Assembly (NCBI RefSeq): GCF_006345805.1
Contig: NC_043013.1
Location: forward strand, 12,834,001-12,898,000
Length of the DNA stretch: 64,000 bases
Direction of reading: 5' to 3'
Origin: Octopus sinensis
Taxonomy: Eukaryota
The first letter of the stretch is position 1, and the number at the start of each line of letters is the position of its first letter. The translations under genes and the position numbers were made by a program. The notes beneath the pieces are model-generated. The model ran no database searches. It saw nothing but the letters and a program-made list of their open reading frames with translations, and was not told the origin of the DNA. Shown here one piece after another: positions 9,150-38,620 of this stretch.

Positions 9150-9703
<554 letters not shown>

Positions 9704-9800
9704 TATTGAGGGTTTACCCGAAAGAAACCGGAATTTTACAATATTATTGTATTCATATAGTTTTACATGTTTACACTTTTATTGCCTTCAAAGTATTTTC

Positions 9801-9944
9801 TACATTATTTACATTTGGCGGATATTTGTCCTCATCGTGTTTCTTGTTAACACAACGTTTCGGCTGATATACTCTCCAGCCTTCATCAGGAGTCTTGGGG
9901 AAATTTCGAACCTGGGTTCTCATTCCTAAGGTATTTTTCAATGC

Positions 9945-9998
<54 letters not shown>

Positions 9999-10106
9999 TA
10001 TCATTATTATTATTATTTTGTCCAGGTCACTGCTTGGAATCGAACTCGGAAACTTGGGGTTAGTAGCTCTTAACCAGTACGCCATATGCCCGTGGGCATA
10101 TGGCAT
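9801..10106 (-). mobile_element. tRNA-headed SINE-like element carrying a hammerhead ribozyme
   Basis: A-box-like TGGCGTACTGG (10074-10084), B-box-like GAGTTCGATTCC (10036-10047), an (AAT)n tract, then a hammerhead at 9849-9894. Palindromic head at 10081-10104. Confidence 0.7.
9849..9894 (-). ncRNA. Type-I hammerhead ribozyme with intact core
   Basis: GACTC-CTGATGA-A-GGCTG-(10 nt)-CAGCC-GAAAC-GTT-GTGTT. Perfect 5-bp stem II, palindromic ACGT stem III, one mismatch in stem I. Confidence 0.75.
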
Positions 10107-11784
10107 AATGGTTAAATATAGAACTGGAAAGTATTTTCTATTTGAAGCAATGCATCGGTCCAGACGCGTTTTCTACTATTCGGTGCAGTGCTGAAACTCT
10201 TGCCAAGTGATTCCTTTTAATGCCTCCGTTGTTTTATTATTCACTTCTTCCACATCTGCAAATTCCGTAGCACCAAGTTTCGTCACCAATGATGACCTTT
10301 GAAAAATGGTCCGCATCAACTGCCCACTTTTCGTTCAATTCGCGACATGAATTCAGTCGTGTCTGCTTTTTCTTTTCCTAGATCAAGCGCAGCACAAATT
10401 TTGCTGCAACTCTTTTCATCCGCAGTTTCTCGCTTAGAATTCGTTGGCAGGAGCTCCAGGACACCCCAATCATATCAACATGTTCATTTGTTCAGTAATC
10501 GTCCCCCAAGGCTAGCTCATGAATGTGTACGATGTTTTCATTTGCTCGGGAAGTCGTCGGTCGTCCTGAATGAGGTTGGTGTTCAGGTGGCAAGTAACCA
10601 TTCATAACGCCTGGAAACCACTCGTAAACATGTGTTTTGCACATCGCAGCGTCCTTATAAGCTGTTTAAATCATGACAAATGTTTTGGCCGCCATTTTTC
10701 CCGGCAGAAAACAGAATTTCACGAAAGCACGCTTCGCTTCAGCCATCGCAAAAATCAACAAACAAGGGTGAAGCACTCCTAAACAAAACCACACTATGTG
10801 GAAGTAGGAGTACACTGGACGATGCCAGTCCATAGACTGATGCCTGAGGGTCACACAGAGAACGTTTCCAGTTACCTTTGTGTAGGCCCTTGGACATGTA
10901 TATTTACACAAACACACAAACACACACACACACGCACACACACACACACACACGCACGCACACACACACACACACACACATGATTATCCAATGGGCAATT
11001 ATATTTAACCCTGGAGGAGCACCTATTTGTAGCCGTTGTTGGTGACCGGGTGTTGTGTAGCGTTTGTCCTGTCATTTCATTTATACTTGCTTGTGGATTC
11101 ATCATTGGATAATCTTTGCATGTCTCACATCGTCTATAAATACACTGTGCACACGAGGGGAGGCCCTTATGTGTACGTTAGTGCCACGGCTGTGAGTGTG
11201 TATGTGTGTGGTAGCGGTGGGGGGGTCTGTGATCATTGCGGGTGTGTACTTGTGTGAGTGTGTCTGTGGGTGTATCAGTGTGCGTGCGTGCGTGCGTGTG
11301 CTCCATGGTAGCAGTGCCGATCTGATGTTTGTATGTGTGTGTGGGTGGCTGAATCTTTATGTCCTGAGGTATGTATCTTTGTGTGTAGGTGTGTTTGTGT
11401 TTGTGTAGGTGTGTGCTGGCCTGTGACCACGAGTATAATTGTTAACGTGTGCGTCTGTATGTCTTTGCATTGATTTAAACGTATGAATGTGCGCGGCTGT
11501 TTGTCCGTGTATCTGACTAACTGTTAAACTATCTCAACGTAACGAAACTCAAATGTAAAGCTCCCAACTTAAAACCTTATTATCCCAATTGAGGAGTCTT
11601 CTTTGCACTGAGCGTTGCATCTGGTGTGGTGTCAATGCATCGTTCCACGCCCACAAGGGAGCAGTGCATCTGGAAGATTAAACAATTGTTGTGATTTTCG
11701 TATACATACATACATATATATAACATATACACATATATACATATATGTATGTGTATATATATCAATATCTATATCTAAATCTAA

Positions 11785-14286: not shown

Positions 14287-17076
14287 CTAGCAGAGATACC
14301 CGGCGTTGCCCGGTTACATTCAATAGAAGAATTAGACTTTTCTGTTATATATATATATATATGGATATATACACACACACACACACACACACAAATATAT
14401 GTATATTAATATAAATACATGAAAGTACATGAAGTTTGTTAAAAAAAAGGGGATCATGTATATACCTCCTGGCTGTTGAGATTATAACACCTCGTTGTAA
14501 ACAATGTTCCTTGTTTTTCCTTGTGGAGCATATACAAAAAGGTTTCTTTTGGTTCCTACTCTTGAGCTGCCAACATACAGTTGCCTATGCGAGAAGCAGG
14601 GCTCTTCCAAGAGAAGACCAGCTACAGAGAGGGTTTGAAACTGAGATTTGTTAATGGACATGGCAAAGCTGACACGAAGGGGGAATTGCAGTCTTCTGAA
14701 TGTAAATGGAATTTCTGCTCCTGATGGGGTAAGAGGAAATCTTGTAATAAAGGCGTCATCACCTTTTCCACATCCAGAAAGAATGATCGCCTCGATGACG
14801 TGTAATATCATTTTCTTTATCACCAGTCGTGTTCCATTTCAAAATCTTGGTGGTTCCAGATTGCGGAGTAGCATTACAGGAGTTCCAACTTTAAGTGGTA
14901 ATATGTGTGGAGGTAGTCGAGGAGGGCTCCAGTGAATTGAGAAATTCAGGAGGATAGTTCACAACTTCATTTATATCTGGAATTGTATCAACAGACTTGT
15001 AAGTGTGTATAGTGCCGGGAAGAGAATGCATTAGCTGTTGATTAATTTTTTTAACAGCGACGTTTTTTGGAGCTAATATTGCTCTTTCACACAGCCAATT
15101 GTGATTTTGGTAGTTTTGTGTGAAGTTGGGAAAGACTTTGTTTTTGAGGTCATCTACAGAATTAACAACAGAGAAAAATGACCACACTTCCATTTGTTCT
15201 GCAGCATCGAGAGGCATCTTGCCTTCACCAAGTGTCAAAATGTTCTGTGCAAACTTTGTGGACATTTTGTCGCCGTGTAGCTGAGCTCTCATGTTAGTGG
15301 TGAGACTAAAGATTGTAATATGATGCCACAGGGTAGAGGACTTTAGGCATGCTTGAACTTCATCAGCTTTAGTGCCTTTCGGAATGACAGGAAGAGTTTG
15401 CCTGAAATCACCTGACAACAGAAGCGTTACACCTCCCATTGGAGCCTGACAGTCTCGGATGTCTTTCAGGGCTCTATCTAATGCTTTCAAAGCTCCCTTG
15501 TGAGCCATAGTGCACTCATCCCAGACAATTACATAACACATTTTAAGTATTTGTCCCTGATCTGAGCTTTTGTTGATGTTGCATGAAGGCATTTCGGATG
15601 CTGCTAAATTGAGAGGGAGTTTAAAAGTTGAGTGTGCTGCCCTGTCACCGGGTAACAAAGTAGCTGCAATGCCAGAGGAGGCTACAGCTACTGCAATGTC
15701 CTGATGCTACCTAAATTCTGCAAGGAGAAGCTTTGTAATAAATGCTTTTCCTGTCCCTCCAGGAGCATCGAGGAAGAAGATTCGTCCTTCGCGTTGGCGT
15801 ACACTGTTAAGAATAGTTCTGTAGGCCTGCAGCTGGTCCGGAAGTAATTTAGGCTCATTTTCAACAATGTACTTTGAAAGCGCTTGAGTGTCGTAGGTTG
15901 TATATATGTATAATATCCACTGAGAAGGCTTTTGTTGTTCTGAAGCTACAGCAGAAGACACATGCCAAGTCACCACACAGTGGGACTGAACCCAGGACCA
16001 TGTGTTTGGAACGTAGTTTGTTACCACACAGCCACACCTGCCCCTATGTATGTGTGTGTGTGTGCGTATGTGTGTATGGGTAGATATATTATCCATGTAT
16101 ATATATGTATATATATGTGTGTACATATTACATGTACATCTATATATATACATCTACACATAAAATACAAAATACTAAGTTATATCTTGATATCGCTAGT
16201 GATAACAATACTCAAAATATATAACAGACTGGAATTGTAGGCCCGTCTCTTGTAATTTCGATCAATTGGATCTTGTCCTCCCTCTTGTATAGAAGTGTAC
16301 GGCTGCAGCGAAATTCATTATTGGACTTTCTTCTATCGAAGGCATTTAAACAAAAATCCTTCCGTAAAGACGGTGAAAATATTGTCAATTTCCCCAAACA
16401 GGGACACAATTCAATTTTTAAACAATAACCAAAGCTCCTTCTCCGAAAGGGGGAGGGTTACGGTTTACAATTATTTAACAAATGCAACACAACAACGTTT
16501 CCCTGACGAGGAACCAACAAACGTGATTACAATAGTTAAACAGTAATAATAACAACAAACCTTTTTAATTTATCCCCATTTATGTGAAACCACTTATTCA
16601 AGTTCAAGTCATTGATGCAATATTATACGAATTGCTAATACACACACACACATAATAAGGGTGAAAAATTGAATATTAATTTGATTAATATGAATTGAAA
16701 ACCAGTGGTGTAACATAATACCATAGCATATCTTCCTCTAGCAAAAACGATGACCACTATTAATGGCTCATCCCTATTATATAATAGTTTCACTTTAATA
16801 GTTTCACACCTGCAAAGAGAAAGTAGGAGAAAGTGTGGTGGTAATAGCAACAGTAAACCACTTGAAATGAGAGAGGCAAATCGTAAAATATTGAGTTTTC
16901 TTGAATTTTTACTTAATTGGGGGTCAAATTGAAAAAAACTTTACATGCCATGACCCAATCGAATCTACTTGGAAAAATCATAGGTAAATTCCAATTGAAG
17001 AAATTCTATATCGTAGAATTGTACTAAAAAGAAGCATGGGAACAGACAGAGAAAATCTGCCTTTTATCATAAGAGA
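14287..17076 (-). mobile_element. Internally deleted Helitron retaining the Pif1-like helicase
   Basis: Helicase motifs LDAPGGTGK, ASSGIAATLL, VWDECTM, GDFRQTLPV, RAILAPKN, RLQFPLR and INKSQ at 14482-15895, with a stop and frameshifts. 3' hairpin CCGGGCAACGCCGGG plus CTAG|T at 14287. Probable 5' end A|TC at 17076. Confidence 0.88.
15905..16045 (-). mobile_element. SINE family A head fragment inside the Helitron
   Basis: GGGCAGGTGTGGCTGTGTGGTAA...GGGTTCAGTCCCACTG. Confidence 0.75.
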
Positions 17077-33300: not shown

Positions 33301-34921
33301 AATTCTTTTACAATAATGTCCTGCTTTCCATCAAAGTAAGATTGGCCAGAGAAGAAATAACAATGTGAAATCTTGGTCTTCTAGAGCCAGATTTTATAAG
33401 TGAACCAGTTCTGCTCAATATTGCTAAAGCTGCTCTCTGTGACCGTGTTTTCGAGAGGTATCCAACACTAAATGCTGAACAGAAGTATGTTTTTTGACCA
33501 AGTTGTTGGATCAGTTATAAACAAGGAGGGGGAAATATTTTGCATGAACGCGGGTGGTGGCTCTGGGAAGACTTACACAATCAATCTGATTCTCGCTGAA
33601 GTTCGGTCATAAGGTCATATTGCTGTTGCCACTGCAGTCTCTGGATTTGCTACCACCCTGCTGGAAAATGGGCGAACTTTGCACTCCAGATGCAGTATTC
33701 CATTGCGAATTACAGAAGAATTTATGTGCCATATGAAAATAAGTGATTCCAGAGGTAATTGACGAGGTTACAATGGGTCAGAGGCATGTCTATGATTGTG
33801 TTGATCGCAGTCCTAGAGAAGTTTGACAACCAGATAAGCTGTTTGGCGGTCTGACTGTTTTGTTTTCTGGAGAATGGAAGCAGATCTTGCGCTTGGTGCA
33901 AAGAGGTTACAGAGTTCAGATTGTTCATGCCATATTAAAACAGTCATACATTTGGAACCATGTCCAAAGCTTTCAGTTGTCTGTCAATATGAGAGTCCGA
34001 AATTCTTGCGGTGTTGACACAACTTTCGCACCCTATCTTGACCAGCTGGGGAATAGAACATTTTCCCTCAATAAAGAAATTGGTGAATACAAAATATCTA
34101 TAGCCCCACCGCATTTGATTGACTCTACAAGGCTACAGGATCTTTGTGAAGTGGTCTTCAGGGCTATTGAGGATAAATATAGAGAGGGTCTATGGATAAG
34201 CAGCAGAGCCATCATTATTCCTACAAACAAGGCTGCTGAAAAAGTAATAAAGTTGTCATGTCAAAGCTTCTACAAGGATATAGTAGAACTTATCAAAGCT
34301 GTGATACTTTATACGAAAACGAGACTGAGTTCCCACCGGAACTGATCAATGATCTCAACTCATCAGGATTTCCACCATACATTTTGGTTTTGAAGAAGCA
34401 CTCTTCAATTATGCTGCTCAGAAACCTTGATCCAGCAGGGGGTCACTGTAACGGAACAAGATATATGGTCGTGAATTTGCACAACCACCTTATTGAAGCA
34501 GATGTGGCCGATGGGACACATGCTGGAATCCGAATAATGATACCCCGAATTCCACGGACCACCACTGAAGACTATCCGTTCTCATTTTCCAGGAAGCAGT
34601 TTCCTCTGAAACTGGTTTTTGAAAGGACAAATCCCAAGGTCAGACTTAAGAAACAGTTGGAATTTACCCGCCAACACCTATGTTCATCCATGGCCAGTCC
34701 TATGTTGCCAATAGCACGATCGGTTCTGGGAACAATGTGCATATATTGGCTTTGGACTCAGAGTATAAGGGTATGAATGGAATATACACTGACAAAGTTG
34801 TCTATTAGGAAATTCTATAAGAAAATTATAGTAGGTTTTACATTTTACTTTCAAACTACAAACAGGAGTGTAGATATGTAAGTAACTGAATCGACCGACT
34901 GGAGGGCGGTGGTTCAGCTAG
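30350..34921 (+). mobile_element. Near-full-length autonomous-type Helitron (Rep/Hel pseudogene)
   Basis: N-terminal ETxxETEAR repeats and CPNC..CC zinc motif. Rep motifs GKPDYFITMATNP and TIEWQKTSLPVH. Helicase motifs AGGGSGKT, FGGL..SGEWKQ, RAIIIPTN, MLLRNL..CNGTR and RKQFPL. 3' hairpin plus CTAG|T at 34918-34921. Many stops and frameshifts; 5' end not located. Confidence 0.9.
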
Positions 34922-36439: not shown

Positions 36440-38620
36440 CTGCAGCTTTGTTTTCCCACCACTTGTCTTTCATCTGTCGCAGCTCAGTCTGCACCTTTGT
36501 TTTCCCACCACTTGTCTTTCATCTGTCGCAGCTCAGTCTGCACCTTTCCTCTGATGTTCTTGAGGCGGTCGTGCTTGGCTTGGGAGTCTTTGTCGTTGAG
36601 CCAGCCTGTGAAGGCTTCTTTCTTCTCCTGGAGGAGGGTGGTGAACCCCTTGTTGTTGTCAAACCAGTCTTGTTGTTTCCGTTTTGTGTGGCCAAGGGTA
36701 AGGCTGGCAGAGTCATACACTGCACCCCGGAAGTTGGCCCAGGCCTTCTCAATATTTCCCTCTGCTGGCAGATGTTCAAGCTGGTTCGCAAGGTTGGCAA
36801 TGAGGGTCTCTTTTGGTTTTGGTTCATTGAGTTTCTGGACGTCCAGTTTCTTTTTAACATCAGCTTTCTGGCGTCTGTGTCTGCTGACAATGGAAAAGGA
36901 CAGTCTGCACCTCAACAGCAGGTGATATGTCCAGCAATCAGCTCCCCTCATTGCCCTAGTGATGCAAACATTCTGGATGTCACGGCGCCTGGTGATCACA
37001 TAGTCAATCAGGTGCCAATGCTTGGACCTTGGGTGCATCCAGGTAGCCTTGTGGATGTCAGGCATTTGGTACAGGGTATTGGTGATGGTGATTCTCTGTT
37101 CAGCGCAGAAGGTCAGTAGCAGTTGACGGCTGTTGTTCTCATGTCCGATGCCATGCGGCCCGATGACATCTGGCCAAGGTTGGGCATCTCTGCCTACACG
37201 GGCATTGAAGTCCCCGAGTATCAGCAGCTTGCTATTCTTTAGGAACTGACCGTAGCACTTTGGTGAGGTTCTGATAGAACAGGTCTCTCTGCTCCAGAGT
37301 GTAGGTCGCAGTTGGGGCTTAAGCACTGAGGTCAGGTGCATCTTGCCTTGGAGAGGAGTTCTCATCACCATCAGGCGATCGCTGAATCCTCTTGAGAGGG
37401 ATTCCATGTTTTTGACGAGGGCGGTGCGAATGGAAAAGCCAACTCCTACTTCCCTGCGTTCATCCGCTGCCTTCCTTGACCAAAAGAAAGTTATCTAGCC
37501 CCAGCCTCGGTGATCTCCCCCGTGTCGGCAAGGCGTGTCTCGCTGAGGGCAGCAACATCAATGCTGTATCTCTGAAGTTCACAACCCACAAGTGCTGTTC
37601 GACGTTCTGGTCTGTCACAGTTTTGGTTGTCCATGTGTGTCCTGATGCTCCAGGCTCCAACACATAAAGTGCTTTTCGGGCGGGAGGATTTGGGATTCTT
37701 CTTTCGTATTTCTTTCATGTTTCGACCGCGTGGTAGATGACCAGTCAGCTGCGGTATGCTGGCAGGATGAGATGAGGCAAGCTTTCTTTAGGTCACATTT
37801 TCTAGACCCTTCCCCCTAAGGGGGCGAGCAGTGCTATCCCTGAAGAGGGTTGTTCCGTCGTCAGAGTGGCTGCCGAACTATGCCCTTGCCCAGTAGGTTG
37901 CAGAACGACAACCCGAGTGTAGGTACATGGCTAGCAGCTCCCAGAGCAATCCTGCACCTGCCACCATCACCATGCGCCCATCGCCTAAGGACTTGGAAAA
38001 AGAAGAAGTAGAGGGGTGGCGTCACTGAATCCTGGGCAAGGGAACTGTGGAGGCCTTGGGTTGCGCAAGACCACCCCACCCCCTCTCGGTACAGCTGATC
38101 TAGCCAGGAGGGACGCAGGACGATACATCCTAGCCACGACTGGACTGCAGGCGTTGCCGGAGATGATGGACTTCATTACCTAACCTCCTTAGGGGTTCCA
38201 CTCCGGATTTGGATACGGTTTACTCCCTAGCCTTTGATTAATCAAAAACACCTACCCGCAAGGCAGCAGGAGACTCTTGGAGGGCGGGGACGTCTCACTA
38301 CCCGTACAGAACCAGAAGGACCTGCCCACTGCCTATACGATATATACAATTTTTAAAAAAGAACACAGTATATACAATACATACACACAGAGAGTCCAAA
38401 ATGCAACATATACAATACACACAAACACTCCACAAACACACATAGTTGAATGGCCGTTGACTACGTTGTAGTTCCTCCACTCTGACAGGACCTATCTTTT
38501 GTCCCGTAAGGTATTCAACAAGCACCGACCTTACCAAGCAAGCGTGGTGGAGTTGGCAGTTTAGTCGCCGACGACCCGACCATGGAACAGGTGATAGTGG
38601 GCTACATGGTACCTGTAGCA
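36440..38620 (-). mobile_element. RTE (BovB-like) LINE 5' half (leader, 5' UTR, endonuclease), inverted
   Basis: VGAWSIRT, RPERRTALV, ALSETR, ILGDFNARVG, TWMHPRSKHWHLIDY, QDWFD and DKWWENK. A 49-bp tandem duplication sits at 36448-36545. Confidence 0.9.

What the first reader, a model, noticed from the sequence alone, without database searches (positions are those of the whole stretch)
9801..10106. Pol III-type SINE fused to an intact hammerhead ribozyme
Seen (minus strand): a tRNA-like head with A box TGGCGTACTGG and B box GAGTTCGATTCC, an (AAT)n spacer, then CTGATGA-A-GGCTG-loop-CAGCC-GAAAC-GTT. The head ends in a palindrome with 11-bp arms (10081-10104), and the unit has inserted as one piece into a mariner. 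Established: minimal type-I hammerheads with palindromic stem III are typical of Penelope-like elements, and Schistosoma Sm-alpha repeats combine Pol III boxes with a hammerhead. Inference: this is a non-autonomous, self-cleaving SINE/retrozyme mobilised by Penelope machinery rather than by a LINE. It is my best candidate for an undescribed system in this window.
Basis: partly seen in the sequence, partly recalled or inferred. Interest (0 to 1): 0.8.

Follow-up and report, generated by a model that had tools for sequence, protein, structure and literature searches.

The report
Penelope retrotransposon with tRNA-derived promoter
This is not a separate short element but the end repeat of an abundant Penelope-type retrotransposon, whose usual self-cleaving ribozyme motif is preceded by a tRNA-like sequence where most short copies begin, so the retrotransposon likely borrows a tRNA-gene (RNA polymerase III) promoter, which we did not find described for this class.

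Summary
The motifs are real, but the unit is the pseudo-LTR (pLTR) of an autonomous Penelope/Poseidon-type element, not an independent SINE. In other copies the head follows the stop codon of an RT/GIY-YIG ORF, and the hammerhead lies inside that ORF's first codons. The window copy is a decayed solo pLTR: stem I has a private mismatch, the 11-bp 'palindrome' is a Penelope-type inversion, and a 13-bp target duplication flanks it inside a mariner. The hammerhead is the known minimal PLE type. The new part is the tRNA-like A/B-box head. Of 90 head-bearing matches, 22 run into the ORF and 41 end within -8..+8 of the head. Six of 8 head-to-tail jumps land at -5..-7, about 13 nt before box A. This suggests an RNA start where Pol III would start. 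Short and ORF-linked copies share variants and age, so the short copies are likely by-products of the same masters. The ORF lacks TTTT (P about 0.03), but so do stretches of some head-less PLEs. RNA-seq showed no discrete ends. Pol III use and cleavage are untested. Verdict: new variant of a known kind; interest 0.55.

The parts
10128..10140 (-). Target-site duplication, upstream copy (13 bp)
   Evidence: same 13 bases at 9790-9802
10112..10126 (+). Inverted piece of the element's 3' tail
   Evidence: reverse complement of the tail end seen in L003, L009, L012 and others
10094..10111 (+). Inverted piece of the head; makes the 11-bp 'palindrome'
   Evidence: same fold-back in L028, L075, L279
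10087..10098 (-). 12-nt natural palindrome holding the inferred RNA start (G at -6 = 10097); tRNA-like +1 = 10091
   Evidence: 5' limits of other copies; the start is inferred
10074..10084 (-). A box of the tRNA-like head
10036..10047 (-). B box of the tRNA-like head
9949..10017 (-). (AAT)n array, variable in length; often split by other retroelement 3' ends in other copies
9921..9923 (-). ATG that opens the PLE ORF in ORF-bearing copies (frame open 388 codons in L145)
9849..9894 (-). Minimal type-I hammerhead inside the first ORF codons; predicted cut after 9854; private stem I mismatch at 9891
9803..9848 (-). Rest of the pLTR up to the tail-less 3' end; the ~35-nt optional tail is absent on this arm
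9790..9802 (-). Target-site duplication, downstream copy
10141..10746 (-). Host element: broken mariner-like transposase gene, interrupted near its C-terminal end
   Evidence: HTH_48, E 8e-4; mariner motifs otherwise recalled

Best explanation
The unit is a solo pseudo-LTR of a Penelope/Poseidon-type retrotransposon, and its tRNA-derived A/B-box head likely acts as an internal RNA polymerase III promoter that starts the element's RNA about 6 nt before the head. Shown: the order ORF stop, head, (AAT)n, ATG, hammerhead, tail; the sharp 5' limit of copies; shared variants of short and long copies. Inferred: the element's RT would start inside the RNA at the tail or just before it (as shown in vitro for the anole element PAc) and copy back to the RNA's 5' end. 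The resulting ~300-nt cDNA would be integrated alone, joined head-to-head with a second cDNA (the inversion in this window), or extended by a jump to another RNA. The SINE-like copies would thus be strong-stop-like by-products of the autonomous masters, with no separate SINE master. The hammerhead is the inherited PLE motif, predicted to work only as a dimer or with protein help, and is likely inactive in this copy.
For: ORF link: 27 of 30 loci found with the ORF's 3' part carry box A right after the stop codon, 19 the hammerhead (the query included the first ~20 nt of the head). Tandem junctions ORF end-head-ORF start in L126 and L189. RT domain (Pfam RVT_1, E 9e-9); C-terminal GIY-YIG-type domain with two cysteines and two histidines and no linker zinc finger (diagnostics from PMC8557442). 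5' limits of 90 head matches: 22 at -62..-726, 9 at -12..-22 (over-extension into fold-backs or AAT, judged by eye), 24 at -8..-1, 17 at +1..+8, 18 at +9..+31. Exact 19-mer counts 707 (about -150), 1,031 (about -20), 5,401 (head), 7,951 (hammerhead), 90 (ORF 5' part). Six of 8 direct jumps onto the head start land at -5..-7, where fold-back cannot explain the limit. A TATA-like motif containing the stop codon lies 28 nt upstream (read). Short (65) and ORF-linked (52) copies: 1 of 24 variable sites at p 0.028, non-CpG divergence 5.2% vs 5.3%. No TTTT in 827 codons, null mean 3.3, P 0.033. No A/B box in 73 distant PLE loci, so the head is a lineage-specific gain.
Against: No direct evidence of the polymerase. 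Three raw RNA-seq runs of a related organism showed no pile-up of ends, equal depth on both strands and 68-72% of reads running into unlike sequence, i.e. copies embedded in other transcripts. The 5' limit coincides with a small hairpin (-5.4 kcal/mol) that could itself stop or fold back the RT. TTTT-free stretches also occur in 24 of 80 distant PLE loci without a tRNA-like head, and no single ORF stretch is significant alone. 3' ends of ORF-5' pieces cluster at a TCTTT (11 of 66 at 30-40) but more at a place without a T run (17 of 66 at 65-86), which does not clearly fit Pol III termination. Contig depth in one non-RNA run shows only a ~2.5-fold step and 19-mer exact-match rates differ (0.17-0.44). 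No copy was found that starts at the head and runs through the whole ORF. Clear target duplications in only 4 of 19 short copies.
Confidence: 0.65

Rival explanations
1. Same pLTR, but the head is a passive relic (an old SINE or tRNA fragment with an AAT tail that landed in the 3' UTR). The RNA is made by Pol II from the TATA-like motif or by read-through, and the 5' limit comes from a Pol II start or from RT stalling and fold-back at the 12-nt palindrome.
For: Limit coincides with the palindrome; 41 of 67 short copies have inverted element sequence directly upstream; the Drosophila Penelope promoter is described as a LINE-like internal promoter (PMC2377424, abstract); an uncapped Pol III RNA is hard to translate (general knowledge).
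Against: Direct, non-inverted starts and head-to-tail jumps share the limit; the hairpin is weaker than hammerhead stem II, which most copies pass; the limit sits at the usual distance before box A; the pLTR sense strand has no TTTT, unlike the T-rich 3' UTRs of distant PLEs.
Confidence: 0.25
2. One reading: an independent non-autonomous SINE/retrozyme lineage with its own masters, derived from the pLTR and moved in trans, possibly through circular RNA.
For: About three quarters of head matches lack ORF sequence (68 of 90); some have 9-13 bp target duplications; animal retrozymes are proposed to derive from PLE pLTRs (bioRxiv 10.64898/2026.07.22.740005).
Against: No diagnostic variant or age difference; head present in the ORF-bearing element; copy ends are at the head and the tail, not at the hammerhead cut; head-to-tail arrays are rare (L029, L193); 8 of 74 hammerheads intact.
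Confidence: 0.08
3. A chance chimera: a tRNA-derived SINE inserted next to a solo pLTR at this one locus.
For: Nested insertions are common here.
Against: Head and hammerhead co-occur in 71 of 90 matches, and body sequence in 77 of 90.
Confidence: 0.01

Closest known systems
Penelope/Poseidon-clade PLEs (e.g. PAc of the green anole, PMC11167929; clade features PMC8557442)
   Same: One ORF with RT and C-terminal GIY-YIG-type nuclease, pLTRs, inverted 5'-truncated copies, optional 30-40 nt tail, hammerhead overlapping the ORF start.
   Different: pLTR carries a tRNA-like A/B-box head and an (AAT)n array; not found in our paper searches nor in 73 distant PLE loci.
Minimal type-I hammerheads of metazoan PLEs (PMC4209133)
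   Same: Short helix I, extra nucleotide before stem II, G-C first pair of stem II, palindromic minimal stem III.
   Different: Nothing essential; the window copy has a stem I mismatch.
TRIMp3: Cassandra, Helenus, Ajax (PMC10886601)
   Same: Small-RNA-derived Pol III promoter inside a terminal repeat, possibly from a SINE insertion.
   Different: Those are non-autonomous LTR elements; that paper argues autonomous partners must use Pol II. Here the head sits in the repeat of the protein-coding PLE itself.
Non-LTR retrozymes (bioRxiv 10.64898/2026.07.22.740005) and Schistosoma Sm-alpha repeats (recalled, not read)
   Same: pLTR-related short units with a type-I hammerhead; Sm-alpha is recalled to have Pol III boxes.
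   Different: Retrozymes are tandem arrays with a hammerhead in every unit; here copies are mostly solo or head-to-head and are not a separate lineage. The preprint has 0 occurrences of 'tRNA', 'Pol III' or 'promoter'.
tRNA-derived SINEs
   Same: tRNA-like head, ~300 nt, roughly 10^4 copies.
   Different: The whole unit is part of the autonomous element, with PLE rather than LINE insertion marks.

Membership tests
Penelope-like element (EN+), Penelope/Poseidon clade | Single ORF with RT domain | tested here: met
   RVT_1 E 9e-9 in L063; RT motifs in L163; all near-full copies seen are broken
Penelope-like element (EN+), Penelope/Poseidon clade | C-terminal GIY-YIG nuclease with CCHH motif, no linker zinc finger | tested here: met
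   Read from translations; Pfam itself gave no hit on this part; one of 12 homologues carries PF01541
Penelope-like element (EN+), Penelope/Poseidon clade | pLTRs, direct or inverted, and optional tail | tested here: met
Penelope-like element (EN+), Penelope/Poseidon clade | Placement by RT phylogeny | not tested
   No named reference PLE proteins were available; clade assigned from domain order only
Minimal PLE hammerhead | Core, extra nucleotide before stem II, palindromic stem III, short stem I | tested here: met
   same layout with different, still pairing stems in 21 of 80 distant PLE loci and in a second family in this genome
Minimal PLE hammerhead | Self-cleavage (dimer or protein-assisted) | not testable with these tools
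   No end pile-up in three fragment RNA-seq runs, which cannot decide this
tRNA-derived SINE | tRNA-like head with A and B boxes | tested here: met
   no Rfam tRNA hit
tRNA-derived SINE | Non-autonomous lineage distinct from its partner | tested here: not met
tRNA-derived SINE | Transcription by Pol III | tested here: inconclusive
   5' limit 13 nt before box A and TTTT scarcity fit; no direct test
Non-LTR retrozyme | Head-to-tail arrays with an intact hammerhead in each unit | tested here: not met
   Mostly solo or inverted copies; 8 of 74 intact
Non-LTR retrozyme | Circular RNA | tested here: inconclusive
   No back-joint at the hammerhead cut among the joints listed; 107 joints were not shown

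The most novel reading that the evidence does not exclude
A protein-coding retrotransposon run from a captured tRNA-gene promoter: Pol III transcribes the whole ~2.7-kb TTTT-free Penelope RNA from its pLTR, and one element yields both ORF-bearing copies and some ten thousand SINE-like copies, showing a route by which a SINE can arise from inside its own autonomous partner.
Probability: 0.3. Interest if true: 0.8.

Novelty: new variant of a known kind. Interest (0 to 1): 0.55.

Why it matters
How PLEs are transcribed is known for few elements, and autonomous retrotransposons are assumed to use Pol II. A tRNA-derived promoter in a PLE's own terminal repeat would be the PLE counterpart of Cassandra/Helenus, but in the coding element. 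It would raise the question of how an uncapped RNA is translated and what the in-ORF hammerhead does. The sharp 5' limit also maps the template's start from genomic copies alone, which makes the strong-stop model for solo pLTRs testable. Practically, some ten thousand such copies could be mislabelled as SINEs in repeat annotation.

Tried and rejected
Rfam at gathering and E-value thresholds: no tRNA or hammerhead hit. Relaxed ARAGORN gave only noise. PDB sequence search of the nuclease part: 0 hits. Pfam on short ORF pieces: 0 hits. The first A/B-box descriptor failed its positive control and was redone (control found in 2 of 3); many distant loci do not reach their ORF end, so that negative is weak. 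The idea that a TTTT-free ORF marks Pol III PLEs was rejected: TTTT-free stretches occur without a head. Termination at TCTTT as the cause of 3' ends: inconclusive. Sequencing-run search: no RNA holder listed on record; raw runs laid were added by species label and come from one study. Earlier-findings look-ups returned nothing. One script timed out and was rewritten; the 618-codon count left out the C-terminal stretch through a slip, and one search replaces it. Left open: ten or so head matches without body within 600 nt (e.g. L241, L247, L264) were not inspected further, so a few free-standing heads are not excluded. No tree of copies was built. Repbase and Dfam could not be searched.

Full report
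Observation. The window lies in a 2.72-Gb genome (G000:C17:12834001-12898000); its size and repeats suggest an octopus-like animal (inference; SINE names recalled). The insertion spans 10127-9803 between 13-bp direct repeats in a broken mariner-like gene. Two details differ. Base 9891 breaks stem I, which is a 5-bp helix in the family. The 11-bp palindrome is an inverted copy of the head preceded by an inverted piece of the family's 3' tail. Rfam and ARAGORN see nothing, but the head aligns to host tRNA genes well above shuffles (54 vs 27+/-4; 30 of 46 tRNA matches were fetched).

It is a pLTR. Three of the first 30 loci had a nuclease-like ORF ending just before the head. A search with that ORF part gave 41 matches; of the 30 fetched, 27 have box A after the stop, 17 both boxes and 19 the hammerhead. 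[quoted passage not shown] The tail continues into the ORF in L062/L063. The frame opens at an ATG upstream of the hammerhead (open for 388 codons in L145), so the ribozyme motif is coding, as in the anole element PAc (PMC11167929, main text read). A homologue at 55% identity, P0003, keeps the peptide encoded by the hammerhead core. Tandem junctions of ORF end, head and ORF start exist (L126, L189). Inverted copies and the optional ~35-nt tail are standard PLE marks.

The hammerhead is the known minimal PLE type (PMC4209133, introduction to discussion read). The same layout with other, still pairing stems was found in 21 of 80 distant PLE loci and in a second family in this genome, which supports selection on the motif across families. 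Within this family the core is no better conserved than flanks (0.93 vs 0.94), the CpG in stem III decays, and 8 of 74 copies are fully intact: the copies decay neutrally, at about 5% non-CpG divergence.

What is new is the head. Exact 19-mer counts rise from 707 and 1,031 upstream of the head to 5,401 in it and 7,951 in the hammerhead, with 90 in the ORF's 5' part; exact-match rates of these words differ (0.17-0.44), so copy number is only roughly 10^4. I mapped 5' limits for the first 90 of the 5,401 head matches (all on C1; they include four near-identical arms and two pairs of inverted partners). Twenty-two run 62-726 nt upstream into the ORF. Nine calls at -12..-22 are over-extensions by eye. 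Forty-one end at -8..+8 and 18 at +9..+31; one of these (L235) is ORF-linked through a deletion. Among 66 copies holding the ORF's 5' part, 8 continue directly into the start of a head, 6 of them at -5..-7; 4 more join in mid-head. These joins are head-to-tail, so fold-back does not explain them; they fit a cDNA that ran to the RNA's 5' end and jumped. The limit lies about 13 nt before box A, with a TATA-like motif 28 nt further up, the usual layout of a tRNA gene (general knowledge). Three ORF-start copies also begin at the head (L145, L151, L152). None of 73 distant PLE loci had A/B boxes or a tRNA-like score above 51 (controls 54-67), a weak negative because many do not reach the ORF end.

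No separate SINE lineage. Sixty-five short and 52 ORF-linked copies share their variants (1 of 24 sites at p 0.028, uncorrected) and divergence (5.2% vs 5.3%). Since the PAc RT starts inside its RNA, the simplest model is that RT starts at the tail of the first pLTR and copies back to the RNA start, giving a short cDNA that is inserted alone, paired head-to-head, or extended by a jump. This step is inferred from another element.

Does Pol III make the whole RNA? The sense strand has no TTTT in about 2.3 kb of three near-full copies (about 3 expected, P about 0.04; 3 of the other 6 copies have one) and none in 827 codons against a codon-aware null of 3.3 (P 0.033). Against: no single stretch is significant, 24 of 80 distant PLE stretches of 220-850 nt are also TTTT-free without a head, and a TCTTT, a moderately efficient terminator in mammalian SINEs (PMC8466645, passages), lies early in the ORF. 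Ends of ORF-5' pieces cluster there (11 of 66) but also at a site without T run (17 of 66). Raw RNA-seq of a related organism (three runs, one study, 6% of each read) covers the whole stretch on both strands equally, 68-72% of reads run into unlike sequence, and no place shows piled-up ends: this shows embedded copies and decides nothing about Pol III or cleavage.

Literature. Seven searches listed no paper describing a tRNA-derived promoter in a PLE pLTR; (Penelope, tRNA-derived, polymerase III, retrotransposon) gave 0 papers. The library lacks most subscription papers, and Repbase/Dfam were not searched, so the family may be catalogued already. Closest concept: TRIMp3 (PMC10886601, passages). 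The retrozyme preprint (part 1 of 5 and a term search; supplements closed) derives retrozymes from pLTRs without mention of tRNA or Pol III. An octopus repeat annotation lists Penelope families without such detail in the passages seen (PMC13282606; supplements not read). The Drosophila Penelope promoter is described as LINE-like (PMC2377424, abstract only). Sm-alpha is recalled only.

Verdict. That the unit is a PLE pLTR: about 0.97. That the 5' limit is the RNA start: about 0.8. That Pol III drives it: about 0.65. That Pol III makes the full coding RNA: about 0.3. New variant of a known kind; interest 0.55.

Noticed in passing
L004, L005, L006, L019 (3' junction as in window 9803-9720): The same insertion in the same mariner site recurs elsewhere on C17 and on small contigs, with other retroelement 3' ends inserted in the AAT array: segmental duplication after insertion. 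L002 is a near-identical duplicate of the window locus.
   Followed up: partly
L004, L005, L006, L010, L011, L013, L019, L124, upstream of the AAT array: Two other retroelement 3' ends repeatedly sit in the (AAT)n array; they look like Dong/R4-type LINEs that target this repeat (label recalled).
   Followed up: no
L022, L038, L097 flanks: A second minimal hammerhead family with different stems I and II and the same GUU triplet; probably another PLE pLTR. Not checked for a tRNA-like head.
   Followed up: partly
window 9150-9565 (minus): Another abundant tRNA-like SINE next to a long (AT)n run; resembles a known octopus SINE (recalled).
   Followed up: no
window 14891-15706 (-), 33827-34776 (+): PIF1-like helicase fragments (Pfam PF05970, PF21530), likely Helitron relics.
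   Followed up: partly
window 36484-37494 (-): 336-codon open frame resembling an RTE-type LINE endonuclease region (by eye; no Pfam hit).
   Followed up: partly
L125-L194, 30-40 and 65-86 nt past the ORF-5' anchor: 3' ends of ORF-5' pieces cluster at two places; possible further internal RT start sites or weak terminators.
   Followed up: partly
L285-L364: TTTT density in distant PLE ORFs is bimodal (0 per kb in 24 loci, mostly of one or two sources, 3-12 per kb in most others) with no tRNA-like head; unexplained.
   Followed up: no
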